Source: an uncultured Comamonadaceae bacterium (GTDB lineage: Bacteria > Pseudomonadota > Gammaproteobacteria > Burkholderiales > Burkholderiaceae_C). From it: a stretch of 64,000 bases of DNA. The notes beneath the pieces were generated by a model. The model made no database searches and was not told where the DNA came from. It worked only from the letters and a program-made list of their open reading frames with translations. The position numbers were made by a program, and so were the translations under genes. Below, one piece after another: positions 5,042 to 38,272 of this stretch (its first letter is position 1; every line of letters begins with the position of its first letter). Where the stretch lies: positions 91,581-155,580 of the forward strand of contig CBIHOF010000002.1 of NCBI GenBank assembly GCA_966211955.1. Direction: 5' to 3'.

Positions 5042-6246
5042 TGTCCGCCGCAGTACCGTTGGGAAGCCAGCACATGCGCTGGACAGATTCCGATGCCGGC
5101 CGCGTGGTGCACGTGGTCGGCTGTGTCACTGATGAGGTGTTCTCTTTTCTCGGTCCGGCCACGAATGCGCTCGCGCGCTCGGGCCTGGAGCAATCGGTGG
5201 TGATGATCGACGACACGCGCTATCGCCACCATGTGGTGAGCCTGCACGAGTCGGCCGAGCTCATCCTCACGCCGCGCGAGCGCAACCCGGTGCGCCAATG
5301 GCAGGCGGTGCTCAACGCATTTCGCGCGACCGCCTCGGGCGAACAATTGCGTGCGGTGCACCTGCACGGCATCCTGCCTTGCCTGGTCGGTGCGATTGCG
5401 ATGCGAACCTCCGGTGTCAAGGCGCCGATCTTCTATTCGCCGCACGGCTCGCGCTCGATGGGCCGCTTCAAGCCCATGGGCCAGTTGCTCTTGTGGCTGC
5501 TGCAGCCCGTGCTGCGGCCCGGGCGCAGTGCGGCCATCGTGAACGTCACTCGCGAGAAGGACGCGTTCAACAAGTGGAAAACGGTGGAGCTGGTCGAGAG
5601 CCCGGCCAGCGAAGTCTTCCTGCAGATGCCGCGCCATGAGTCGCGGCATCCCCTGGTCGTCACCGGCGGGCGCGCGCAGAGCGTGCGCAGCGCCGAGCTG
5701 ATGGCGCAGCTCGCGGTGCTCCTGGGTGACGAGGCGCTGCGCATCAGCTTCAACTGGATCGGCCGCGTCGACGAGGTCTCGCGCATGCGGCTGAACGCCG
5801 CCAACGTGAGCGTGTTCGAGGTGGCCAATGCCGAGGAATGCGCGACGCGCCTGTCCTCCGGCTGGATCTACGTCGCGCCCGGAGGCACGCGAGGGTTCCC
5901 GGTATTTCTCGTCGAGGCCATGGCCGCGGGCCTGCCTTGCGTCGCCATCGACAGCCCGCAACACCGCGAGGTGATCCGGGACGGCGAGAACGGTTTCCTG
6001 TGCGAGAGCGAACGCGAGCTGATCGGCTGCATCGCCACGCTCATCGACAGCCCGACGTTGCGCCAGCGCATCGGCAACGCCGCGCGCGCCGAAGCCCGCG
6101 AGCGCTTCGGACAGCAGGTCTTCAGCGACAAGCTGCTGGCGGCGTATTCGCTGGCCGATGCGTCGGCCGAACTCGAAGCGCCCGATGCCCCCAACCCTCT
6201 CGGCAAGCCTGACCTGCCCCAGATTTCCGGAAACCCCGCCACATGA
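5041..6246 (+). CDS. glycosyltransferase family 4-like (GT-B)
   Basis: C-terminal [18 protein letters not shown]...[16 protein letters not shown] coupling to the upstream gene. Confidence 0.75.
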
Positions 6247-7571
6247 AAGTCACCGTCATCGGAAGCGGCTACGTCGGCCTCGTCACGGGCGCCTGCCTGT
6301 CGGACATGGGCAACGACGTGCTCTGCCTGGACCTCGACGAGCGCAAGATCGCGATGCTCAAGGACGGCAAGATTCCCATCTACGAACCGGGCCTTCAAGA
6401 GGTGGTGCGCCGCAACGTGGAGGCCGGCCGCCTTCACTTCACCACCGACGTGCCGGCCGCCGTGCAACACGGCACGCTGCAGTTCATCGGCGTGGGCACG
6501 CCGCCCGACGAAGACGGCTCGGCCGACCTGCAGTACGTGCTGGCCGCTGCCCGCAGCATCGGCCGCCACATGACCGACTACAAGGTCGTCATCGACAAGA
6601 GCACGGTGCCGGTGGGCACGGCCGCGAAGGTCAAGGCGGCGATCGCCGATGAGCTCGCCGCGCGGGGCGTGGCACTGGATTTCGCCGTCGTCTCCAACCC
6701 CGAGTTCCTGAAGGAAGGCGCGGCGGTGGAAGACTTCATGCGCCCCGACCGCGTGGTGGTGGGTGCCGACGACGAGCGTGCCGTGCTGCTCATGCGCGCG
6801 CTGTACGCGCCCTTCACCCGCAACCGCGACCGCCTGCTGGTGATGGACGTGCCGAGCGCGGAGTTCACGAAGTACGCGGCCAACGCAATGCTCGCCACGC
6901 GCATCAGCTTCATGAACGAGCTGGCCCTGCTGGCCGAACGCGTGGGCGCCGACATCGAGCTCGTGCGCCAGGGCATCGGCAGCGACCCGCGCATCGGCAC
7001 GCAGTTTCTCTACGCCGGTGCGGGCTACGGCGGCTCGTGCTTCCCGAAGGACGTGAAGGCCCTGGTGCGCGCGGCGAAAGACAGCGGAATCACCTTGCAG
7101 GTGCTGACCTCGGTGGAGGCCGCCAATGAGCGGCAGAAGCTCGTGCTCGTGGACAAGGTCGTCGAGCGCTTCGGCGAAGACCTCACCGGTCGGCAGTTCG
7201 CGCTGTGGGGGCTGGCCTTCAAGCCCAACACCGACGACATGCGCGAGGCACCCAGCCGCGTCATCATCGAAGAGCTGCTGCGCCGCGGCGCGAACGTGCT
7301 GGCCTACGACCCGGTCGCCATCCACGAGGCAAGACGTGTGCTCGGGGATCTGCCCGGCCTGCGCTTCGCCAGCGATCAGGCGGCCGCCTTGCAAGGCAGC
7401 GATGCGCTGCTGATCGTCACCGAGTGGCGGCAGTTCAAGAGCCCGGATTTCGAGCAGATCCGCGCGACGCTCAAGCAGCCGGTGGTCATCGACGGCCGCA
7501 ACCTCTATGACCCGGTGCACATGAAGCAGATGGGCATCGAGTACCGCGGCATCGGCCGCGCGGCGCAGTGA
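6243..7571 (+). CDS. ugd: UDP-glucose 6-dehydrogenase
   Basis: [58 protein letters not shown]. Confidence 0.96.
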
Positions 7572-7584
7572 GGAAGGCCGGCCC

Positions 7585-8640
7585 ATGAGACCCGAGCCGA
7601 TCCGGCTGCTGACGCTGGACGCGATGCGCGGCATCGCGGCCATCCTGGTCATGCTCTACCACCTGAACGCCGCAGGCGCCCATGTGTTCAAGAGCGGCTA
7701 CCTCGCGGTGGACTTCTTCTTCGTGCTGAGCGGCTTCGTGCTCGCACGCACCTACGACGCGCGGCTCGCCGCCGGCCTGCCGTTCCGCGAATTCGCGGCG
7801 CTGCGCGTGATCCGGCTGTACCCGTTGATCTTCTTCGGCCTGCTGATCGGCGTCGCGCGCTTCGGCGGGCAGATCGTCATCCACCACCCCGACCGCATGA
7901 CGGTGCCTGACCTGGTGGTGAGCGCGATCTTCGAGATGCTGCTGCTGCCGTCGCCGACCTCCAATTTCATCGCGCCCTTGAACGCGCCGGCATGGTCGCT
8001 GTCCTTCGAGATGGCGGCCAGCCTCGTCTACGCGGCGTGGCTCGTGAAGGCCAAGCCGCGTGCGCTGCTGGCGGTGTGCGGCCTCTGCGGCCTCGGCGTG
8101 GTGTGGGCTGCGGTGCTGCACGGCTCGACCGGCTTCGGCTTCAAGTGGGACGACCTGCACACCGGTGTCGCGCGCGTCGGCTTCTCGTTCACGCTGGGCA
8201 TGCTCATCGCGCGCTCGCACCACAAGCCGGTGGTGAAGAGCCTTTGGGCCTTCGCGCCGATGGCGGTGCTCGGCGCGCTGCTGTGCGTGGACGTGACGGG
8301 CGGTGCACGCCTGGCCTTCGACCTCGCGATGGTGCTGCTGGTGTCGCCGCTCCTCGTGTGGTGGGGCGCGGGCCTCAACCCGCCGGACGCCGGCGCCGTG
8401 GTCTCGCGCTGGCTGGGCGATGTGTCGTACCCGCTGTACGCGGTGCACTTCCCGCTGCTCTTCATGGTGGGCTTCTTCGGCAAGAAGGCCGGCCTGCCGA
8501 CGGAGGTGTGGATGGCGATCTTCGCGGTGGGCATCCTCGTCTTCGCGACGCTGCTCGACCACTTCTATGACCGGCCGGTGCGCCGTGCGATGACGGAGGG
8601 CTTGCGCCGCATCCGCGTGGCGCGGCCGTCGCTCGCCTGA
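7585..8640 (+). CDS. acyltransferase family 3 (membrane O-acyltransferase)
   Basis: LDAMRGIAAILVMLYH, AVDFFFVLSGFVL, WSLSFE, LGDVSYPLYAVH; multi-TM. Confidence 0.9.
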   Translation: MRPEPIRLLTLDAMRGIAAILVMLYHLNAAGAHVFKSGYLAVDFFFVLSGFVLARTYDARLAAGLPFREFAALRVIRLYPLIFFGLLIGVARFGGQIVIHHPDRMTVPDLVVSAIFEMLLLPSPTSNFIAPLNAPAWSLSFEMAASLVYAAWLVKAKPRALLAVCGLCGLGVVWAAVLHGSTGFGFKWDDLHTGVARVGFSFTLGMLIARSHHKPVVKSLWAFAPMAVLGALLCVDVTGGARLAFDLAMVLLVSPLLVWWGAGLNPPDAGAVVSRWLGDVSYPLYAVHFPLLFMVGFFGKKAGLPTEVWMAIFAVGILVFATLLDHFYDRPVRRAMTEGLRRIRVARPSLA

Positions 8641-8645
8641 GTTCG

Positions 8646-9761
8646 ATGGCAAGCCAACAATCGTTCTCGCGCAACGTCAACGGCTTTCGCGGCCTGTGCG
8701 TGCTGCTGGTGTTCCTGCACCACGTCGCGCACTCCGGCCTCGTGCCGGGCGCGGACCCCGAATCTCTTTGGCAGCTCACGCTGCAGGAGCTCTTCATGAG
8801 CTTCGGCTACGGCGTGGAGCTCTTCTTCATGATCAGCGGCTACGTGATCGTGCAGAGCCTGCGCCGCCATTCGAGCGTGCGCGCCTTCCTCTTCGACCGC
8901 GTGCTGCGCATCTTCCCGGTGTGGCTGCCGCTCGCGCTCGTGCTGAGCATTGGTTGCCTGCTCACCGGCAAGATCGGCTTCGTGGCCTCCGAGCCTTCGT
9001 GGTGGTTGCCGGTGACGCTGGCCAACCTCGCCTTGCTGCCGCCTCTCATGCCCTTGCCACTCGTGCATCCGGCTTCCTGGTCCTTGAGCTACGAGTGGCT
9101 TTTCTACATCGCCTGCGCGGGTGTTGCCGTGCTGTGGCGTTCGCCCTCGTCATCGCGCGTGGGCAAGGCGGCGTGGGTCACTGCCGCGGTGCTGCTGATG
9201 TGCGCCATCCCGCGCTCGCTGTTCTTCCTGCCGGGCGTGCTGGTGGCGCTCGCGCCGCAGGTGGTGGCGCCGCTGCAGCGCGCCACGTGGCTGGCGGGTG
9301 CGAGTCTGCTGGTGCTGCTCGCCAGCTGGTTTTCCACTGGCATCTTCGCGGCGCAATTCGGCACGCCGCTGTGGTCGGTGGTGGCCGAAGGGCACGGCCC
9401 GGCGGTGCTCGTCGCACTTCTGGCCGGCACGCACCTCTTTGCCTGCGTCGCCGCACCCGACAACGCCGGGTTGTCCATCCTGCGCACGCGGGCGGCGCAG
9501 CACCTGGGCCGCATCAGCTACAGCTTCTACCTGATGCACCCAGTGGCGATGTCGATCGTCAAGCCCATCGTCGCGCGCACCGTGCCCGAGGGTTGGCCGG
9601 CCACGCTCGTCTTCTTCGCCGCCTCCGCGCTCGTCGCATGGGCGCTCGCCTATGCCTCCTGGGCCTTGCTGGAGCAGCGTTTCGCACGCTGGCTCAAGGC
9701 CCGCCACGCGCCGCGCTCGACCGCCGCACCGGTGGTTCTCGTTCAAGGACACAGTGCATGA
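8646..9761 (+). CDS. acyltransferase family 3
   Basis: NGFRGLCVLLVFLHH, GVELFFMISGYVI, WSLSYEW, LGRISYSFYLMH. Confidence 0.9.
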   Translation: MASQQSFSRNVNGFRGLCVLLVFLHHVAHSGLVPGADPESLWQLTLQELFMSFGYGVELFFMISGYVIVQSLRRHSSVRAFLFDRVLRIFPVWLPLALVLSIGCLLTGKIGFVASEPSWWLPVTLANLALLPPLMPLPLVHPASWSLSYEWLFYIACAGVAVLWRSPSSSRVGKAAWVTAAVLLMCAIPRSLFFLPGVLVALAPQVVAPLQRATWLAGASLLVLLASWFSTGIFAAQFGTPLWSVVAEGHGPAVLVALLAGTHLFACVAAPDNAGLSILRTRAAQHLGRISYSFYLMHPVAMSIVKPIVARTVPEGWPATLVFFAASALVAWALAYASWALLEQRFARWLKARHAPRSTAAPVVLVQGHSA

Positions 9762-32246: not shown

Positions 32247-34112
32247 TCACGGCGCGACGACGGTGGTGTTGACCATGGTCACCGAGGCGGTGAGGCCGAT
32301 GGCACGTCCGATCAAGGTGGTCTGCGCGGTCTGGCCAGCCGTCGAGATGGTCACCCCGGCCGGCGCGATGATGGTGCCCACCATCGTGCTGCCGTCCTCG
32401 ATGCGGGCCGCGCTGCCGACCTGCCAGAAGACGTTCCGGGCCTGGGCTCCGTTGATCAGCAACACACGGCGCGGCGTGGCGGTCAGGCCGACGGTCAATG
32501 CCGCGGCGCTCTGGAACACCCACACCGCATTGGCGTCGCCTTGTGCATCCAGGGTCAGGTCGCCGGTCGTGATGTCGAAGGTCCCGCCGGCGGAGGTGTA
32601 GACGGCCGGAGTCAGCACGAGGCCGCCCAGCTGGCCGGCGCCAGGGTCGCTTCCCGGCGGCATCGCAGCGAGGTCGTTGTAGGCCTGCAGCGCATCGGCA
32701 CGCGCCTGGGTCGCGATGGCCATGGTCGTCGCGGTCCCCGGTGCGGGCGGAGCGCAGTAGATGCTGCCGTTGACCGCGCCGATGTTCAGCGTCGTCTGCG
32801 TGTAGACATTGACCGCGTCGTGGAAGCCGGTGATCAGCGTGCAGGCCGCGGTGGTGCCGAGGTTGCCGTTGACGACGGTGTTGATCCCCTCGTTGGTGAC
32901 GCCCGCGGCGCCGCCAAATGCGCCGAACGATGCGGCGGAGCGCAGATTGACGCCGCCATTGCAGGCCAGCGTGCCGCTCGTGAAGCCCCAGGTCCGATCG
33001 GCTGCGAGTGCGTTGCCTGCCAGGTCTTTCACCCCGGCGCTGCCGGAGGCGATGGTCACGACGAACGCGGTGCTGGCTGAGAACCCGGCTGCGTTGGTGG
33101 GTGAGAAGCTCGCGGTCTGGCTCGCCGCGTCGTAGCTCACGGTGCCCGGGACAGCTGTGCCTGCGGCGGTCACGCGGAAGGTGGCCGCGGTGATGGTGGC
33201 TGCATCCATCGGCTCGCTGAAGGTGGCGCTGACGATCTTCGTCAGGCACACGCCCGCGGATGCGTCGAGCGGGCTGATCGCCGTCACGGTGGGTGCGGTG
33301 GTGTCACCCGCTGCGCCGGTGGTGAAGGCCCAGACATGTTGGCCCGCGTTCGGCAAGACTGCCATGTTGCCTGCCAGTGCGTTGCCGGCCAGGTCGGTCA
33401 CTGCCGTGGTGAGCGTCGCGGTGAACAAGGTGTTGTTCGCCAGTGGGGTGATGGACGGCGTGAAGGTCGCTGTCCGCGCTGCGGCCGAGTAGCTGACGCT
33501 GCCGCTCAGCGGTGTGCCGAGCGTGGTGTTCATCACGGTGAAGCTGGCGGCGGTGATCGTCGCCGGATTCATGTCCTCGCTGAAGGTCGCCGTGATGCTC
33601 GAGTTGTTGGGAACGCCAGCGGCGCCGGCGGCCGGCACGGTCAGCACGACGGTGGGGCGTGTCGTGTCGGCCAGTGCGGCGGTGGTGAAGGTCCACACGA
33701 AGTTGCTGGCGAGTGCGAAGCCGGCCGCGTTTTGTGCCGCGGTGGTCACGGTGGCCGTGCACAGTGTGTTGGCTGGGAGCGCCGAGCTCGGCGTCAACGT
33801 TGCCGTCTGGGTCGCGGCGTCGTAGGCGACCGCTGCGCTCACCGGCGTGCCTGCGGGGCAGGCCAGCGTGAAGCTCGACGGTGTAAGACTCGCCGGCGCC
33901 ATCGCTTGGCTGAAGGTGGCGGACACGGCACTGTTGGTGCCCACGCCCGTGGCGGCGGCTGCCGGCAACGTGGCGGTGACGGTCGGCGCGATGCCGACTC
34001 CCGGACTGCCAAGGATGGGATCGACACCCCCGCCGCAACCGGCGACGAATGCGAGTAGCAATGCGGGGATCCATCCGATCCGCGCCTTGAAGAGGCGATA
34101 GAGCTGCGTCAT
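32247..34112 (-). CDS. lipoprotein with three Ig-like (Big_5) domains and C-terminal DUF3494 ice-binding-like domain
   Basis: Lipobox FVAGC; three PTV..xP....GV......ATFS..M repeats; DUF3494 motifs AYNDLA, LTPAVY, LTLDAQGDANAVWVFQ, NVFWQVGSAA. Confidence 0.87.
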   Translation of the reverse strand: MTQLYRLFKARIGWIPALLLAFVAGCGGGVDPILGSPGVGIAPTVTATLPAAAATGVGTNSAVSATFSQAMAPASLTPSSFTLACPAGTPVSAAVAYDAATQTATLTPSSALPANTLCTATVTTAAQNAAGFALASNFVWTFTTAALADTTRPTVVLTVPAAGAAGVPNNSSITATFSEDMNPATITAASFTVMNTTLGTPLSGSVSYSAAARTATFTPSITPLANNTLFTATLTTAVTDLAGNALAGNMAVLPNAGQHVWAFTTGAAGDTTAPTVTAISPLDASAGVCLTKIVSATFSEPMDAATITAATFRVTAAGTAVPGTVSYDAASQTASFSPTNAAGFSASTAFVVTIASGSAGVKDLAGNALAADRTWGFTSGTLACNGGVNLRSAASFGAFGGAAGVTNEGINTVVNGNLGTTAACTLITGFHDAVNVYTQTTLNIGAVNGSIYCAPPAPGTATTMAIATQARADALQAYNDLAAMPPGSDPGAGQLGGLVLTPAVYTSAGGTFDITTGDLTLDAQGDANAVWVFQSAAALTVGLTATPRRVLLINGAQARNVFWQVGSAARIEDGSTMVGTIIAPAGVTISTAGQTAQTTLIGRAIGLTASVTMVNTTVVAP

Positions 34113-34401
34113 GTTGTGTCTTCCCTGATTGAGGGCCGCTCTTCGCGGCCTTGCGTGAGACGCGGTTGTAAAGCGGCCATGCCGCGTGCGTCTGTGCGTT
34201 GGCGCACACATCAAGAAGATGTGGTGGTCGAGGTACGGCAACGGGACCAAGGGCCTTGGACCCTGCGGTGCTGTCGCGTGGACTGCCAGCGAGTCATCGT
34301 GCGGTTGAGCAAACTCGTGGGCCGTGTCGGCCTGCGGCCTCATCAGTGGCGCCGACGCGGCGCGTGGAGCAACTCCCGTTGCGGCCCACCCGCAACCCGC
34401 C

Positions 34402-35277
34402 CTACACCTTCGCGCACATCATCCGAAATGCGCCACCGGTTCGCAGCCCATCCTTGCGACGTGCCAGGTATCGCGCGTTCAGCTCCCCGCCATCCCAGCT
34501 GCGGATGCCCCGGAAGCCGAGGGCATTCAGCTCGCCCTGGAAGCCCACCGGGTCGAACTGCGACTTCCAGGGCTCGCCTTCATCGGTGATGACGCGGCGG
34601 ATGTAGTCGTCGATCACGCGCTCGATGGGGTTCAGCATCGTTGGCGAGGCGCGATAGTCGAAGGTGACGCCACTGCCTGGTGGCATCGACGCGATGAAGC
34701 GCAAGGTGTTCATCACTGCTTCGCGCTCGAGGTACACCACCACGCCAAGCCATGAGAAACAGGCCGGGCGGTCGGGGCGGAAGCCGGCCGCGCACAGGCA
34801 TTCGCCGAGCGCGTCGCACTCGAAATCCACCGCAACGAACTTCATCGAATCGGGTGCGCGAATCGATGCCTCGGCCAGCAGCTTCCTCTTCCAGCGCTGG
34901 GTGGACGGATGGTCCACTTCGTAGACCATGAGTCCGCGCGGCGTGTGGATGTTGCGGTAGGCGAAGGTGTCCAGCCCCGCGCCGAGCACGACGTACTGCG
35001 TCACGCCGGATTCGACCGCGCGCGCGAGCTCGTCCTCGGCCATGCGGCTTCGCACGACGAGCGAGGCGCGCAGGCCGCGCCACAGCGGGTCGTTGTGCTG
35101 GTAGGGGTCTTCGCGCAACTGCGCTTCGGTGGCAGCGCCGAGGATGGGCAGCGCCAGCGGGTCGTCGAAGACGATGGGTTCGTCCAGGAGCTGGTGCGCT
35201 GCGCGCAAGACGGCCACGCGCCAGGCAGAGTGGCTGTGCTGGCCGGCATGGACGATGTTGGCGGTCGTCGCGGTCAT
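34402..35277 (-). CDS. class I SAM-dependent methyltransferase (LCM/TcmP-like)
   Basis: SAWRVAVLRA, VVRSR..ED, YVVLGAGLDTFAYR, YEVDHPSTQ, WLGVVVYL; RBS AGGAG. Confidence 0.87.
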   Translation of the reverse strand: MTATTANIVHAGQHSHSAWRVAVLRAAHQLLDEPIVFDDPLALPILGAATEAQLREDPYQHNDPLWRGLRASLVVRSRMAEDELARAVESGVTQYVVLGAGLDTFAYRNIHTPRGLMVYEVDHPSTQRWKRKLLAEASIRAPDSMKFVAVDFECDALGECLCAAGFRPDRPACFSWLGVVVYLEREAVMNTLRFIASMPPGSGVTFDYRASPTMLNPIERVIDDYIRRVITDEGEPWKSQFDPVGFQGELNALGFRGIRSWDGGELNARYLARRKDGLRTGGAFRMMCAKV

Positions 35278-35318
35278 CGCTCGCCTCTCCTGCTGATGCA
35301 CAAGCCTTCTGCCGAACC

Positions 35319-36353
35319 TCAGGCGGCGTGCGCTTGTGGTACGCGTGCCGCGCGCATCGATTCGAAGGCACGGTGCAGAAACTGCCGCGCTGCCTCCGAC
35401 AGCATGCCCGCATCACGCAGCAGCGGCTCGCCTTCGAAGGCCTGCATCATGCGCTGGCGCAGGCCGACGTCACCGCGCACCATGCGATCGCACAGCGCAT
35501 CCCAGCGGCCGGCCAGCGCATGGGCTTCGGTGCAATGTCCGTCACTGCCGCGCTCGATCAGCCGCGTCACGTCCTCGGCCAGTTCTCGCCACTGCGGCGC
35601 GAGCGTCTTGTCGATTCGCACGATGTCTTCTTCGCTCAGGTATTTGCGCATGGCCGCGAGCCGAAGCTCGATCGCCCGGCCGATGTAGTCCATCACGTCC
35701 AGGTCGATGCCATGCCGCCCGCGCGTGATGGACTCCTGCCGGTACATGCGGCCCCAACGCATCAGCCGGTCCATGTCGCCATCCATCCAGCGGATGGACA
35801 GGTCCATCCACTCTCGCGCGAGGCGCTGCACCGCCACCGCGTGCGGCGGTGTGTCCTGCGCCATTTGCTCGCGGATCTGCGCGACCAGTGGCGGCCATTC
35901 GCTGGCCAGGCGCTTGAGGTTGCCCAGGATGAGCCGCAGCTCTTCGGTATCGAAATACTTGCCGTAGGTGGACATCAGCGACAGCGTCCCCAGCCAGTCG
36001 TCGATGCCGGGCGCGCCGCCCGATGCCATCGCCGCCTGCACGAGCGTGAGCCGTGATCGCAGCTCGGTGGCCTGCGCAATCTCACGATCCAGCGATTGCA
36101 GCTGCCGCTCGATGATCGCCGGCAGCGATCCGCCATCGCGCGACAGCAGCTCGCCGATCTCCGCGAGCGTGAGCCCGAGCCGTCGCAGCGCCTGGATGCC
36201 GTGCAGCCGCGCCACGTCCGCGCCGTCGTACAGCCGGTAGCCGCCGTCTGAACGGCCGGAGGGCTTGAGCAGCCCGATCTCGTCGTAGTGGTGCAGCGTG
36301 CGGATGGTGAGGCCGCTGTGCCGCGCCAGTTCACCGACCTTCAGAAGTGACAT
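35319..36353 (-). CDS. MerR-family regulator with tandem TipAS-like ligand-binding domains (AlbA-like)
   Basis: VGELARHSGLTIRTLHHYDEIGLL HTH, coiled coil, then two repeats of Y(F/L)..E....(W)..L...(LA..W); 344 aa. Confidence 0.88.
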   Translation of the reverse strand: MSLLKVGELARHSGLTIRTLHHYDEIGLLKPSGRSDGGYRLYDGADVARLHGIQALRRLGLTLAEIGELLSRDGGSLPAIIERQLQSLDREIAQATELRSRLTLVQAAMASGGAPGIDDWLGTLSLMSTYGKYFDTEELRLILGNLKRLASEWPPLVAQIREQMAQDTPPHAVAVQRLAREWMDLSIRWMDGDMDRLMRWGRMYRQESITRGRHGIDLDVMDYIGRAIELRLAAMRKYLSEEDIVRIDKTLAPQWRELAEDVTRLIERGSDGHCTEAHALAGRWDALCDRMVRGDVGLRQRMMQAFEGEPLLRDAGMLSEAARQFLHRAFESMRAARVPQAHAA

Positions 36354-36384
36354 GGCTCCCTCGTCACATGATTCGTGGCGAGCG

Positions 36385-36415
36385 AGTATGAACCCTCACG
36401 CTACGAGAGGGTCAA
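36385..36415 (-). promoter_or_regulatory. MerR-type promoter (19-bp spacer with dyad)
   Basis: Minus strand TTGACC-19 nt-CATACT with dyad ACCCTC...GAGGGT, immediately upstream of the MerR gene. Confidence 0.8.
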
Positions 36416-36497
36416 GGTCGGGTGGGCTTCAGGGTCACTGGCAGCAGAACGACTTGGGTAAGCTCCGGGCCGACGCTCACTTCACCGGACACCTGCG

Positions 36498-36977
36498 ATG
36501 CGACTGCTGCCCTCCTTCACGCTCGCCCTTGCGAGCCTCGCAAGCCTCACCTTCGCGGCCCACGCCGAGTCCATCGGCGAGGTCGACACGGTCTTCAAGC
36601 TGATCGGCCCCGACCACAAGATCGTGGTCGATGCCTACGATGATCCGAAAGTGCAGGGCGTGACCTGCTATGTCTCGCGCGCCAAGACCGGCGGCATCAA
36701 GGGGGCCTTGGGCATCGCCGAGGACAAGGCCGAGGCGTCCATCGCCTGCCGGCAGGTCGGGCCGATCGCCTTCGCGAAGCCGCTGCCGGTGCAGGAGGAA
36801 GTGTTCAACGAACGCCTGAGCCTCGTCTTCAAGAAGCTGCGCATCGTGCGCATGGTCGACAAGCAGCGCAACGCGCTTGTCTACCTGACCTACTCCGACC
36901 GCGTGATCGAAGGGTCGCCGAAGAACTCCGTCACCGCGGTGCCGGTGGACCGCGGGACGGTGATCCCGGTGAAGTGA
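36498..36977 (+). CDS. creA: CreA family exported protein
   Basis: Signal peptide, [54 protein letters not shown]. Confidence 0.9.
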
Positions 36978-37565
36978 TCAGCCCTTGCGCTCTTGCGCGT
37001 CGTGCTTCTCGTGGCGGATGCGCTTGCCCTGGCGGTTCTCGGCGTGCTGGACGCCGGCCTGCTCTTTCGCGCCGATGCGGCCGTCACGCGCCGCGACGTA
37101 CTCGCGCTTGTCGACCTTGGCCTGGCCGCGCTCCAGCTTGCTCACCTCACGGTTGGTGAGCGAGCCATTCTTGATGCCCTGCTCGACGCGCTGCTGCTGG
37201 TTGATGTTGCGCTGGACATCCGCCTGCGCCCGCTGTGACGAAGCCGACAGCGGGTTGCCGTTGACGCCGTTGTTCTTAGCGGTGTCGATGTCACGGCTCG
37301 TCTTGTTCTGCGCGGCCTGCAGGCGGGCTCTCTCTGCGTCGCTCAGCTTGCCGTCCTTCAGCGCCTGGGCCTGCAGCTTGTCGACCTTCGCTTCATCGCG
37401 CTCGAGCAACGATGCTTCGCGGGTGGTGATGCTGCCGCTCTGAAGGCCCTGCTCGATGCGCTTGTCCTGGTTCACGTCGCGCTGCACGGTGGACGCGGCG
37501 GTCTGCGCAAAGGCGCCGAAGCTGGCGCCGATGAGCGCGACGGTGAGGATGAGCTTGTGGTTCAT
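36978..37565 (-). CDS. hypothetical exported protein with two ~75-aa internal repeats
   Basis: Signal peptide, RBS AGGAG; repeats VQRDVNQDKRIEQGLQSGSIT.RE and VQRNINQQQRVEQGIKNGSLT.RE. Confidence 0.8.
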   Translation of the reverse strand: MNHKLILTVALIGASFGAFAQTAASTVQRDVNQDKRIEQGLQSGSITTREASLLERDEAKVDKLQAQALKDGKLSDAERARLQAAQNKTSRDIDTAKNNGVNGNPLSASSQRAQADVQRNINQQQRVEQGIKNGSLTNREVSKLERGQAKVDKREYVAARDGRIGAKEQAGVQHAENRQGKRIRHEKHDAQERKG

Positions 37566-37717
37566 TGCAGTTCTCCTGATGCGGATTTGAGATTCGGTCT
37601 GGGCCCGCTGTGCACAACGATGGCTGCATGGCCACGTTGACCACGTTCAAATCGTCACTTGGTGAAGTTGTGTTGAGCGTCAGGATCTGCTCAGGTGGGA
37701 AAGAGGCACGCCTCGGA

Positions 37718-38272
37718 TCAATCGAACAGATCCGGCGTCTGTGCCTCGGTGATGCGTGCGCCCTCGATGCCCAGCATCCGCAGCTTGGTGGTCAAGCCGC
37801 CCCGCGCCGAGAAGCCGCCGAGCCTGGTGCCTGCAGCGACGACGCGGTGGCAGGGCACGATGGGTGCGAACGGGTTCGCGCCCAGTGCCTGGCCGACGGC
37901 GCGCGCAGCGCCGGGGTCGTCCATGCGCGAGGCCACCTCGCCGTAGGTCAGCGTATGCCCGCGCGGGATCGCCTGCGTGATCTCGTAGACGCGGCGATGG
38001 AAAGCGGGCACGCCGTCCATGTCGAGCGGGATGCACGAGAGATCCACGTCGGCGCCTTCGAGCAATGCCACCACCTGGTCCATCGCGGCTTGCACCTCGG
38101 GTGGCGGCGCGCCTTCCACCGCATCTGCATGGCGCCGCTGCATGCGAGCGCGCAAGGTGGCTTCGCTCACGTCGGGCAACTGCATCGCACAGATGCCACG
38201 TTCGCCCCATGCCACGGCGCAAGGTCCGATGGAGGTGGGGAACAGCGCGAATCCGGTGGCGGCCACGTTCAC
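37718..38272 (-). CDS. ogt: methylated-DNA--protein-cysteine methyltransferase
   Basis: IPRGHTLTYGEVA, ARAVGQALGANP, PCHRV active site. Confidence 0.92.
   Translation of the reverse strand: MNVAATGFALFPTSIGPCAVAWGERGICAMQLPDVSEATLRARMQRRHADAVEGAPPPEVQAAMDQVVALLEGADVDLSCIPLDMDGVPAFHRRVYEITQAIPRGHTLTYGEVASRMDDPGAARAVGQALGANPFAPIVPCHRVVAAGTRLGGFSARGGLTTKLRMLGIEGARITEAQTPDLFD

What the first reader, a model, noticed from the sequence alone, without database searches (positions are those of the whole stretch)
34402..36415. AlbA/TipA-like drug-sensing regulator driving a SAM methyltransferase: candidate sense-sequester-methylate resistance module
Seen: a 19-bp-spacer MerR promoter with dyad directly upstream of a 344-aa MerR with tandem ligand-binding repeats, followed by an LCM/TcmP-like methyltransferase. 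Known: AlbA (albicidin) and TipA (thiopeptides) autoactivate such promoters and sequester the drug. Inference: ligand binding induces both the sponge and a modifying enzyme, which would be an inactivation route I do not know to be described for this family.
Basis: partly seen in the sequence, partly recalled or inferred. Interest (0 to 1): 0.65.

Follow-up and report, generated by a model that had tools for sequence, protein, structure and literature searches.

The report
Drug-sensor regulator wired to a methyltransferase
A soil betaproteobacterium carries an AlbA-type antibiotic-sensing regulator next to a carboxyl methyltransferase, and related genomes show that this pairing is a conserved, uncharacterised family that looks like an inducible "bind and methylate" defence against an unknown small molecule.

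Summary
A MerR-type promoter has TTGACC, a 19-bp spacer and CATACT, with an 8-of-9 dyad in the spacer. It precedes a 344-aa MerR whose C-terminus is a tandem TipAS repeat aligning over the whole AlbA drug-binding domain. A 291-aa LCM-fold SAM methyltransferase (MT) follows after 41 bp.

Comparative data support the regulatory link:
- About a dozen loci keep the MerR-then-MT order.
- In most, the same operator-promoter sits directly in front of the MT.
- In many Burkholderiales the two are fused: MerR-LBD-MT of 630 aa, or LBD-MT of about 500 aa.
- The window's genome has only two such operators, and each drives an LCM MT.
- A sister clade of these regulators drives MFS exporters instead.
- Genes riding behind the MT elsewhere are resistance-type (Arr, amidase, GNAT, glyoxalase-fold).

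The MT keeps the residues that hold a substrate carboxylate in the characterised OPCMT-like enzymes. The albicidin-contact triad of AlbA is absent, so the ligand is unknown.

Ligand, substrate and resistance are inferred. No transcript data could be obtained. I class it as a new variant of a known kind, of moderately high interest.

The parts
36410..36415 (-). -35 hexamer TTGACC of the MerR-type promoter
   Evidence: Read directly from the sequence. It is part of the pattern found once in the window, with 0 expected by chance.
36392..36412 (-). Operator dyad ACCCTCTCG-TAG-CGTGAGGGT, overlapping the -35 and lying inside the 19-nt spacer (36391-36409)
   Evidence: The right half-site matches the AlbA SELEX motif ACNCTNACG perfectly and the left half-site has 1 mismatch (motif from bioRxiv 10.64898/2026.09.21.753095; scan). 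The same operator recurs upstream of TipA-class MerR genes and of the MT genes in related loci.
36385..36390 (-). -10 hexamer CATACT
   Evidence: It lies 19 nt downstream of the -35. Orthologous promoters in L082 and L119 have the identical TTCATACT.
35319..36353 (-). AlbA-like MerR regulator gene, 344 aa plus stop
   Evidence: Pfam MerR_1, MerR, MerR-DNA-bind and TipAS. PDB sequence hits are TipAL-N, MtaN and AlbA. Orthologues of 64-92% identity exist. The AF2 model has pLDDT 85.5 and its top 13 PDB fold hits are all AlbA.
36141..36353 (-). Winged-helix DNA-binding domain (residues 1-71)
   Evidence: MerR_1 covers residues 5-71. The closest sequence match is the TipAL N-domain, 2vz4, at E 8e-17.
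36024..36125 (-). Long coiled-coil dimerisation helix (residues 77-110)
   Evidence: The AF2 model has a helix at 77-110. MerR-DNA-bind covers residues 47-103.
35658..36002 (-). Ligand-binding repeat 1 (residues 118-232, TipAS-like; equivalent to the AlbAS N-terminal domain)
   Evidence: It aligns to AlbAS residues 2-112. Pfam TipAS covers residues 147-228. hhalign against repeat 2 gives 99.6% probability. W153 and W182 are invariant and correspond to AlbAS W27 and W56.
35322..35657 (-). Ligand-binding repeat 2 (residues 233-344; equivalent to the AlbAS C-terminal domain)
   Evidence: It aligns to AlbAS residues 113-221. W255 and W284 correspond to AlbAS W133 and W162. The R181 equivalent is M303 and the Q205 equivalent is H327.
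35315..35335 (-). Decayed remnant of a second, internal operator that in relatives drives the MT directly
   Evidence: This is a 4-mismatch match to the dyad. In alignment A3 the window lacks the -35 and left half-site (TTGACCCT) that G004, G244, G262 and G047 keep at this position.
35284..35290 (-). Ribosome-binding site GGAGAGG of the methyltransferase gene
   Evidence: Read from the sequence; it lies 6 nt upstream of ATG 35277.
34402..35277 (-). LCM-fold SAM-dependent methyltransferase gene, 291 aa plus stop; OPCMT-like putative small-molecule carboxyl methyltransferase
   Evidence: Pfam LCM 1.7e-49 and TIGR00027 1e-54. The AF2 model has pLDDT 95.2. The best fold matches are Rv0731c and ML2640c (TMq 0.74-0.76, TMt 0.73-0.78), followed by LCMT-1, PPM1 and TYW4. 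S17, Y182, R25, R76, GxG 99-101, D122 and D151 match the ML2640c catalytic and SAM-binding residues.

Best explanation
This is a ligand-inducible two-gene resistance-type operon.

The 344-aa protein is an AlbA-class MerR activator. Its dimer sits on the dyad inside the over-long 19-bp spacer. When a hydrophobic small molecule enters the Trp-lined tandem TipAS domain, the dimer untwists the promoter and switches on its own gene. That makes more ligand-binding 'sponge'. By read-through across a 41-bp gap it also switches on the downstream methyltransferase.

The methyltransferase is an OPCMT-like member of the LCM fold. It most likely converts a carboxyl group of that same ligand into a methyl ester using SAM, neutralising it.

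The same regulator probably also controls a second gene in this genome: an LBD-methyltransferase fusion on contig 21 that carries the only other operator of this type.

Shown here: the promoter and operator anatomy, the domain architecture, the conserved coupling of sensor and enzyme (adjacency, operators in front of the MT, fusions), and the retention of the SAM-binding and carboxylate-holding residues.

Inferred: co-transcription in this strain, the identity of the ligand, that the enzyme's substrate is the inducer, and that the outcome is resistance.
For: Architecture and operator:
- The operator half-sites match the AlbA SELEX motif ACNCTNACG.

Coupling of sensor and enzyme:
- MerR followed by MT, adjacent and co-directional, occurs in the window and in G004/L082, L119, L120, the P0243 contig, G262, G161, G047, G244, G306, L014 and L015.
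- Within the sampled family, all 8 MT hits of at least 49% identity are linked to an AlbA-like domain or operator. Below that identity only one of ten is, the 38% G306 copy.
- A canonical operator-promoter lies directly upstream of the MT in L097, L098, L099, L104, L014, L015, L081, L082, L100, L119 and L117.
- MerR-LBD-MT fusions of 630 aa (L087, L102) and LBD-MT fusions of about 500 aa are numerous in Burkholderia, Paraburkholderia, Trinickia, Pandoraea and Comamonas.

This genome:
- It has exactly two TipAS-containing genes and two intergenic operators of this type. Both lead to LCM methyltransferases.

Operon structure in the window:
- The gap is 41 bp, there is an RBS, and no terminator-like or sigma-70-like site lies between the genes.

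Enzyme chemistry:
- The closest folds, ML2640c and Rv0731c, are experimentally small-molecule carboxyl methyltransferases. Their carboxylate-holding Thr20 and Tyr194 correspond to S17 (Ser or Thr in 78 of 78 sequences) and Y182 (78 of 78).

Resistance context:
- The sister clade of regulators drives MFS exporters, with or without a membrane acyltransferase.
- Genes behind the MT in relatives are Arr rifampin ADP-ribosyltransferase, amidase, GNAT, glyoxalase/bleomycin-resistance fold and DinB.
- Precedent: the TcmP-like methyltransferase Spm neutralises pyochelin by methyl-esterification (PMC10592502).
Against: - No transcript, binding or enzymatic data exist.
- In this window the internal operator that drives the MT in relatives has decayed. 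MT induction here depends on unproven read-through.
- The albicidin-contact residues N75, R181 and Q205 are replaced by G201, M303 and H327. There is therefore no candidate ligand, and the carboxylate-anchoring Arg of AlbA is missing. A conserved R299 and R/K301 lie nearby.
- MT orthologues of about 60% identity in Pseudomonas syringae and Dyella have neither a MerR neighbour nor an operator. The enzyme clade is not always coupled to such a sensor.
- The SAM-tail contact Glu189 of ML2640c is Leu here.
- The AF2 model of the LBD superposes only loosely on ligand-bound AlbA (TMt 0.45-0.48, rmsd 12-13 A).
Confidence: 0.55

Rival explanations
1. The module handles an endogenous or nutritional carboxylic acid rather than an antibiotic. 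The regulator senses a self-made or environmental hydrophobic acid, such as a siderophore, an aromatic acid or a steroid or bile-like acid. The MT esterifies it for acid homeostasis, export or signalling.
For: OPCMT-like enzymes accept many rigid carboxylic acids, and their authors proposed a role in acid homeostasis and sterol catabolism (PMC10193983). The pumps driven by the sister clade are of the MFS_3 'transmembrane secretion effector' type, to which siderophore exporters belong. MT orthologues in P. syringae and Dyella sit in ordinary metabolic neighbourhoods.
Against: The characterised members of the TipA/AlbA class respond to foreign antibiotics (PMC6078987, PMC7762955). Accessory genes in the orthologous operons are resistance-type: Arr, amidase, GNAT and bleomycin-resistance fold. 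The module is sporadic within the genus, with a full-length regulator in 2 of 15 other genomes. That pattern is typical of accessory defence rather than core metabolism.
Confidence: 0.2
2. In this particular strain the two genes are no longer co-regulated. Having lost its own operator-promoter, the MT is constitutive, weakly expressed or silent, and the MerR is a plain autoregulated sponge like AlbA.
For: The internal operator present in G004, L119, G244, G262 and G047 is degraded in the window, with the -35 and left half-site deleted. No transcript evidence was obtainable.
Against: The gap is 41 bp with a good RBS and no terminator-like structure or promoter-like site. A relative with 89% identical MerR and 84% identical MT has the same 42-bp gap and both genes intact. 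The MT is intact with all invariant residues.
Confidence: 0.1
3. The MT acts on something other than the inducer. It could act on a cellular target that it protects by methylation, or on a different toxic compound, as one arm of a general stress regulon.
For: MerR multidrug regulators such as Mta and BmrR control genes whose substrates are broader than the inducer (established knowledge). The accessory genes differ from locus to locus.
Against: The ligand-binding domain is covalently fused to the MT even without the DNA-binding domain (L101 and the forms of about 500 aa). That is hard to explain unless the domain serves the enzyme's own substrate. The closest characterised enzymes act on small carboxylic acids.
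Confidence: 0.08
4. The MT is a protein carboxyl methyltransferase that modifies the regulator or its ligand-binding domain. This would be adaptation or resetting, as with LCMT-1 on PP2A or CheR on chemoreceptors. Alternatively, the MT-like domain acts as a SAM-sensing input.
For: The fold family is named after protein leucine carboxyl methyltransferases, and LCMT-1 and PPM1 are fold hits at TMq 0.66-0.71. Fusion to the regulator would suit a cis-acting modifier.
Against: The nearest structures and catalytic residues are those of the small-molecule OPCMT-like branch (21-24% identity against 10-16% for LCMT/PPM1). MT orthologues also exist alone. The regulator already has a complete ligand-binding domain.
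Confidence: 0.06

Closest known systems
AlbA (AlbAL/AlbAS), the albicidin resistance regulator and sponge of Klebsiella oxytoca
   Same: It has the same architecture: MerR wHTH, coiled coil and tandem TipAS-type domain. The alignment covers the whole AlbAS at 24% identity, and AlbA structures are the best PDB fold hits. The operator logic is the same: a 19-bp spacer with a dyad overlapping the -35 and half-site ACNCTNACG. The four tunnel tryptophans W27, W56, W133 and W162 are conserved. A conserved Met sits at the position of the AlbAS internal start (M127 in 66 of 67 sequences).
   Different: AlbA regulates only itself, and its operator occurs once in the K. oxytoca genome (PMC10189885). Here an enzyme gene follows, and a second operator in the genome drives another methyltransferase. 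The albicidin-recognition residues N75, R181 and Q205 are replaced by G, M and H.
TipAL/TipAS of Streptomyces (thiopeptide-induced autoregulated MerR)
   Same: The DNA-binding domain is the closest in sequence (2vz4, E 8e-17). The LBD is of TipAS type and the promoter is autoregulated with a long spacer.
   Different: TipA has a single TipAS domain and no enzyme partner. Covalent capture through a cysteine was not examined here.
OPCMT-like small-molecule carboxyl methyltransferases (MnMT4, ML2640c, Rv0731c; PNAS 2023, PMC10193983)
   Same: These are the best fold and sequence matches. The N-terminal helical domain plus Rossmann core is shared. The SAM contacts Arg28, Arg90, GxG, Asp135 and Asp164, and the carboxylate-holding Thr20 and Tyr194, are conserved as R25, R76, G99/G101, D122, D151, S17 and Y182.
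   Different: Identity is only 21-24%. Glu189 is replaced by Leu177. The mycobacterial enzymes are not reported with a MerR or TipAS partner (no mention of MerR in the paper). The substrate here is unknown.
Spm, the staphylococcal pyochelin methyltransferase (TcmP-like; PMC10592502)
   Same: It is a bacterial LCM/TcmP-type methyltransferase that neutralises a competitor's small molecule by forming its methyl ester. This is the same proposed chemistry and ecological logic.
   Different: Spm is controlled by Fur in an operon with fhuD1, not by a ligand-sensing MerR. It has no binding-domain partner or fusion. Its sequence relationship to the window MT was not measured.
Multidrug MerR regulators driving efflux pumps (BmrR-bmr, Mta-bmr/blt) and MerR-merA
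   Same: A ligand-activated MerR turns on a gene that removes or detoxifies the inducer. The sister clade found here drives MFS pumps.
   Different: Those regulators have other ligand-binding domains (GyrI-like, metal sites) and other outputs (pumps, mercuric reductase). None has a TipAS tandem domain paired or fused with a methyltransferase.

Membership tests
TipA/AlbA class of MerR-family regulators | N-terminal MerR winged-helix DNA-binding domain followed by a dimerisation coiled coil | tested here: met
   MerR_1 at 1.8e-19 and MerR-DNA-bind at 6e-9. TipAL-N and MtaN are the top sequence hits. The AF2 model has a helix at 77-110.
TipA/AlbA class of MerR-family regulators | C-terminal TipAS-type antibiotic-recognition domain | tested here: met
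   PF07739 TipAS scores 33.8 bits against a cut-off of 23.8. The whole-genome scan gives 24.6 bits, also over the cut-off.
TipA/AlbA class of MerR-family regulators | Own promoter with a 19/20-bp spacer and a dyad operator overlapping the -35 | tested here: met
   TTGACC, a 19-nt spacer and CATACT, with an 8-of-9 dyad. Chance expectation is 0. The same operator is found upstream of dozens of related MerR genes.
AlbA (albicidin resistance protein) | Tandem duplication of the TipAS unit forming one ligand-binding domain | tested here: met
   hhalign of repeat 1 against repeat 2 gives probability 99.6%, E 8e-25. The alignment covers AlbAS 3-222. The top 13 fold hits are AlbA, with 212-216 aligned columns.
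AlbA (albicidin resistance protein) | Closed tunnel geometry of the two subdomains as in the crystal structures | tested here: inconclusive
   The AF2 model superposes with TMt 0.45-0.48 and rmsd 12-13 A. The helix order is the same but the inter-domain arrangement differs. This could reflect an apo or open state, or model error.
AlbA (albicidin resistance protein) | Operator half-site ACNCTNACG (SELEX) | tested here: met
   The right half ACCCTCACG is a perfect match. The left half ACCCTCTCG has 1 mismatch.
AlbA (albicidin resistance protein) | Albicidin-contact residues N75, R181 and Q205 (plus Y169, T99) | tested here: not met
   The equivalents are G201, M303, H327, M291 and G225. Across the family the equivalents are mostly G, L and R.
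AlbA (albicidin resistance protein) | Self-contained autoregulated single gene whose operator is unique in the genome | tested here: not met
   An MT gene follows after 41 bp. A second intergenic operator in the genome (C21:47789) drives an LBD-MT fusion. The K. oxytoca statement comes from PMC10189885.
AlbA (albicidin resistance protein) | Short LBD-only isoform from an internal start; nanomolar binding of albicidin | not testable with these tools
   Met127 at the AlbAS start position is conserved in 66 of 67 sequences. Translation and binding cannot be assessed computationally.
OPCMT-like small-molecule carboxyl methyltransferases (LCM fold, IPR007213) | LCM fold with an N-terminal helical substrate domain plus a class I Rossmann core | tested here: met
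   PF04072 at 1.7e-49. The AF2 model has pLDDT 95. The top Foldseek hits are Rv0731c and ML2640c at E 4e-17 (TMq 0.74-0.76, TMt 0.73-0.78).
OPCMT-like small-molecule carboxyl methyltransferases (LCM fold, IPR007213) | Carboxylate-holding pair Thr20 and Tyr194 (ML2640c numbering), essential by mutagenesis | tested here: met
   The profile alignment to ML2640c places S17 opposite Thr20 and Y182 opposite Tyr194. The columns are Ser or Thr in 78 of 78 sequences and Tyr in 78 of 78. Residue roles are from PMC10193983.
OPCMT-like small-molecule carboxyl methyltransferases (LCM fold, IPR007213) | SAM contacts Arg28, Arg90, Ala113/Gly115, Asp135, Asp164 and Glu189 | tested here: met
   R25, R76, G99/G101 and D122 are invariant and D151 is Asp in 75 of 78 sequences. 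One exception: the Glu189 equivalent is Leu177.
OPCMT-like small-molecule carboxyl methyltransferases (LCM fold, IPR007213) | Forms methyl esters of rigid carboxylic acids in vitro | not testable with these tools
   This requires a biochemical assay.
Spm/TcmP-like xenobiotic-neutralising methyltransferases | Membership of the TcmP-like signature (IPR016874) and methyl-esterification of a competitor's metabolite | not tested
The relation is by shared LCM superfamily only.

The most novel reading that the evidence does not exclude
AlbA-type tandem TipAS domains and LCM-fold carboxyl methyltransferases form a widespread 'capture-and-methylate' antibiotic-inactivation system. It occurs split, as here, or fused, as in the Burkholderia cepacia complex and relatives. 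The drug-binding domain both senses the compound, through the MerR head, and hands it to the enzyme, which methyl-esterifies an essential carboxylate. This would be a new enzymatic resistance mechanism, possibly aimed at carboxylate-bearing natural products such as oligo-arylamides, aromatic acids or siderophore-like toxins.
Probability: 0.35. Interest if true: 0.8.

Novelty: new variant of a known kind. Interest (0 to 1): 0.6.

Why it matters
AlbA and TipA are textbook 'self-regulated sponges': the regulator is also the resistance protein, and nothing else is known to be under its control. This locus and its relatives show that the same sensor class has been wired, repeatedly and even by gene fusion, to effectors that remove the ligand. 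The effector is a carboxyl methyltransferase in one branch and an MFS exporter, with or without an acyltransferase, in another.

If the methyltransferase acts on the bound ligand, this would be a new antibiotic-inactivation chemistry with a built-in substrate-capture domain. It is present in hundreds of Burkholderiales genomes, including opportunistic pathogens. That bears on the development of albicidin-, cystobactamid- and PBD-type drugs, for which AlbA-like proteins are already a known liability.

It would also give the large, mostly orphan OPCMT-like methyltransferase family a physiological context. The promoter offers a ready-made biosensor with which to find the ligand.

Tried and rejected
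- Consensus scans of 34000-36700 found no sigma-70 site and no intrinsic terminator. The scan only allows 16-18-nt spacers, so it cannot see the MerR promoter.
- The RNA fold downstream of the MT stop is no more stable than shuffles (z 0.18). The 3' end of the operon is therefore undefined.
- Albicidin as the specific ligand is rejected as a prediction, because the recognition triad is not conserved.
- Chance adjacency is rejected by the synteny, the operators and the fusions.
- Two further operator-like matches in the genome, C4:211687 and C5:117109, lie inside long coding frames with the TTG out of register. I dismissed them as chance.
- Universality of the coupling is rejected. MT orthologues in P. 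syringae and Dyella have no MerR and no operator. More distant paralogues of 44% identity or less, including G000:C30, are unlinked except the 38% copy in G306.
- Literature searches for TipAS or AlbA together with methyltransferase, for TIGR00027, and for LCM together with MerR returned nothing relevant. The AlbA papers do not mention a methyltransferase or an operon.
- Pocket-level inference from the AF2 regulator model was abandoned because of its loose superposition on AlbA.
Full report
**What is in the sequence**

All features lie on the minus strand.
- The promoter has TTGACC at 36415-36410, exactly 19 nt of spacer, and CATACT at 36390-36385.
- A search for this architecture finds it once in the 64-kb window, against 0.00 expected in 100 dinucleotide-preserving shuffles.
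- The promoter precedes a 344-aa ORF (36353..35319).
- After a 41-bp gap with the RBS GGAGAGG comes a 291-aa ORF that starts at ATG 35277 and ends at 34402. The orthologues are also 291 aa, so ATG 35277 is preferred over the upstream GTG at 35301.

**The regulator**

- Pfam finds MerR_1, MerR, MerR-DNA-bind and TipAS, all above their cut-offs.
- By sequence the DNA-binding domain is closest to TipAL-N and MtaN. Residues 130-342 align over the entire AlbA drug-binding domain (E about 3e-11).
- A profile of residues 118-232 matches a profile of residues 233-344 at hhalign probability 99.6% (E 8e-25, 99 columns). The ligand-binding domain is therefore a tandem duplication, as in AlbA.
- An AF2 model (pLDDT 85.5) has AlbA structures as its top 13 PDB matches over 212-216 columns. 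The global superposition is loose (TMt 0.45-0.48, rmsd 12-13 A), which may reflect an open state.
- The operator half-sites match the AlbA SELEX motif ACNCTNACG. The right half is a perfect match and the left half has one mismatch (bioRxiv 10.64898/2026.09.21.753095).

Mapping the AlbAS contact residues (PMC6078987) through the alignment gives a mixed picture.
- Conserved: the four tunnel tryptophans, as W153, W182, W255 and W284.
- Not conserved: the albicidin-recognition triad N75, R181 and Q205, which becomes G201, M303 and H327. Y169 becomes M291 and T99 becomes G225.

The protein is AlbA-like in architecture and DNA recognition, but it is not predicted to bind albicidin.

**The enzyme**

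- It matches Pfam LCM at 1.7e-49 and TIGR00027 at 1e-54.
- The AF2 model has pLDDT 95.2.
- The best fold matches are Rv0731c and ML2640c (E about 5e-17, TMq 0.74-0.76, TMt 0.73-0.78). LCMT-1, PPM1 and TYW4 follow.

ML2640c and Rv0731c have been shown to be small-molecule carboxyl methyltransferases ('OPCMT-like'). They have a large hydrophobic pocket, and Thr20 and Tyr194 hold the substrate carboxylate (PMC10193983). A profile alignment puts window residues opposite the ML2640c residues as follows.

| ML2640c residue | Role | Window MT residue | Conservation in 78 homologues |
|---|---|---|---|
| Thr20 | holds carboxylate | S17 | Ser or Thr in 78/78 |
| Tyr194 | holds carboxylate | Y182 | Tyr in 78/78 |
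| Arg28 | SAM contact | R25 | invariant |
| Arg90 | SAM contact | R76 | invariant |
| Ala113/Gly115 | SAM contact | G99/G101 | invariant |
| Asp135 | SAM contact | D122 | invariant |
| Asp164 | SAM contact | D151 | Asp in 75/78 |
| Glu189 | SAM contact | L177 | not conserved (Leu) |

**Is the regulator really coupled to the enzyme?**

1. The MerR-then-MT order recurs in the following places:
   - Albitalea terrae S-16 (G004/L082; 64% and 76% identity);
   - three metagenome contigs of close relatives, which also keep the divergent creA neighbour;
   - five other genera of the same family (G262, G161, G047, G244, G306);
   - two Cellvibrionaceae MAGs (L014, L015).
   In a sample of 301 genomes of the family, all 8 MT copies of at least 49% identity are linked to an AlbA-like domain or operator. 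Below that identity only one of ten is, the 38% copy in G306.

2. A scan with the dyad shows that in most of these loci a complete operator-promoter lies between the MerR and the MT, directly in front of the MT: L097, L098, L099, L104, L014 and L015. L082, L100 and L119 have two operators, one before each gene. In Herbaspirillum (L117) the operator precedes an MT with no MerR nearby.

3. In G012 and G139 the two genes are one 630-aa ORF: MerR, tandem TipAS and LCM. A database search finds such fusions in Burkholderia cepacia-complex species, Paraburkholderia, Trinickia, Pandoraea, Comamonas and Herminiimonas. It also finds forms of about 500 aa that lack the DNA-binding domain. Roughly 15-19 clusters at 50% identity carry the LBD-plus-MT architecture.

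4. The window's own genome contains exactly two TipAS-bearing genes and exactly two intergenic operators of this type. One is the window promoter. The other is on contig 21, where a perfect operator-promoter precedes a 490-aa LBD-MT fusion without an HTH. The window MerR is the only candidate regulator for it.

5. In the window itself, the internal operator seen in relatives has decayed. The -35 and left half-site are deleted (alignment A3). The MT must therefore be expressed by read-through from the MerR promoter. The 41-bp gap, the RBS and the absence of terminator-like or promoter-like sites fit this, but it remains inferred.

**What the system is for**

A maximum-likelihood tree of the regulators puts the window protein with A. 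terrae (support 100/100), within a grade of MT-linked regulators. Nested beside them is a clade (support 97/93) whose members carry the operator-promoter just downstream of the MerR gene. There it drives an MFS_1/MFS_3 exporter, in five cases preceded by an Acyl_transf_3 membrane acyltransferase. Effector type is strongly clustered on the tree (0 of 200 shuffles as low).

Genes riding behind the MT in other loci are of the resistance type:
- an Arr NAD+-rifampin ADP-ribosyltransferase whose start overlaps the MT stop in A. terrae (NF033144, 230 bits, cut-off 130);
- an amidase between the MT and the MerR in L081;
- a GNAT in G306;
- glyoxalase/bleomycin-resistance-fold proteins in L014 and L015;
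- a DinB-family protein in G244.

There is also a precedent for the chemistry. The TcmP-like methyltransferase Spm of S. aureus neutralises pyochelin by methyl-esterification (PMC10592502).

Taken together, the most economical reading has three steps. A hydrophobic, probably carboxylate-bearing foreign compound enters the tandem TipAS domain. The MerR activates transcription. The induced sponge and the methyltransferase then sequester and esterify the compound.

**Caveats**

- The ligand is unknown, and the Arg that anchors albicidin's carboxylate in AlbA is absent. Conserved R299 and R/K301 lie nearby.
- MT orthologues of about 60% identity stand alone in P. syringae and Dyella.

The rivals and my estimates for them are:
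- an endogenous or nutritional acid as substrate (0.2);
- loss of coupling in this strain (0.1);
- a substrate other than the inducer (0.08);
- protein methylation or a SAM-sensing role (0.06).

**Comparison with what is known, and novelty**

The AlbA literature describes a self-contained autoregulated sponge whose operator is unique in the genome (PMC10189885). It has no methyltransferase or operon partner. Full-text searches for TipAS or AlbA with methyltransferase, and for TIGR00027, found nothing relevant.

The individual parts are known kinds: an AlbA-class regulator, an OPCMT-like carboxyl methyltransferase, and detoxification by methyl-esterification. Their conserved coupling and fusion appears undescribed. 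I class it as a new variant of a known kind. The window's copy is the split form of a much larger family.

Noticed in passing
G000 contig 21, 47786-49303 (locus L101:3314-4840): The window's own genome holds a second system. A perfect TipA/AlbA-class operator-promoter (TTGCAC, 19-nt spacer, TAAGGT) precedes a 490-aa protein made of an AlbAS-like tandem TipAS domain fused to an LCM methyltransferase, with no DNA-binding domain. It is probably controlled in trans by the window's MerR, which is the only full-length regulator of this class in the genome.
   Followed up: partly
Loci L001-L012 (Polaromonas, Acidovorax, Ramlibacter, Giesbergeria, Pseudorhodoferax), about 6000-8700 in each: A sister clade of AlbA-like MerR regulators has the operator-promoter immediately downstream of the MerR gene. 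There it drives an MFS_1/MFS_3 exporter, in five loci preceded by an Acyl_transf_3 membrane acyltransferase. The MerR genes themselves showed no such operator within the 110 bp upstream of their starts.
   Followed up: partly
L082:4860-5282 (Albitalea terrae S-16): An Arr-type NAD+-rifampin ADP-ribosyltransferase (NF033144, 230 bits) starts 10 nt before the stop of the MT orthologue. It is therefore apparently part of the same MerR-controlled operon. This hints that rifamycin-like compounds should be tested as inducers.
   Followed up: partly
L081:3939-7385 (Burkholderiales MAG): A rearranged version of the module: operator-promoter, MT, a 489-aa amidase-signature enzyme and the AlbA-like MerR, all co-directional and tightly packed.
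   Followed up: partly
G000 contig 1, 312614-312910 (L118): The genome has its own Arr homologue (PF12120, 167 bits) in a 281-aa open frame with an unrelated N-terminal extension. No TipA-class operator is nearby.
   Followed up: no
G000 contig 30, 40609-41454 (L103): A third LCM-fold methyltransferase paralogue (44% identity to the window MT) has no MerR, TipAS domain or operator nearby.
   Followed up: no
L117:3946-4876 (Herbaspirillum sp. ST 5-3): An MT orthologue (59% identity) is preceded by a TipA-class operator-promoter (TTGACT, 19-nt spacer, TATCTT) although no MerR gene is adjacent. This implies regulation in trans.
   Followed up: no
window 36498-38272: Divergent from the MerR promoter is creA (36498-36977, plus strand). 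This neighbourhood is conserved in the closest relatives. Next comes a 195-aa protein with internal repeats and no Pfam hit (36978-37565, minus strand), then an Ogt-type methylated-DNA-protein-cysteine methyltransferase (37718-38272, minus strand).
   Followed up: no
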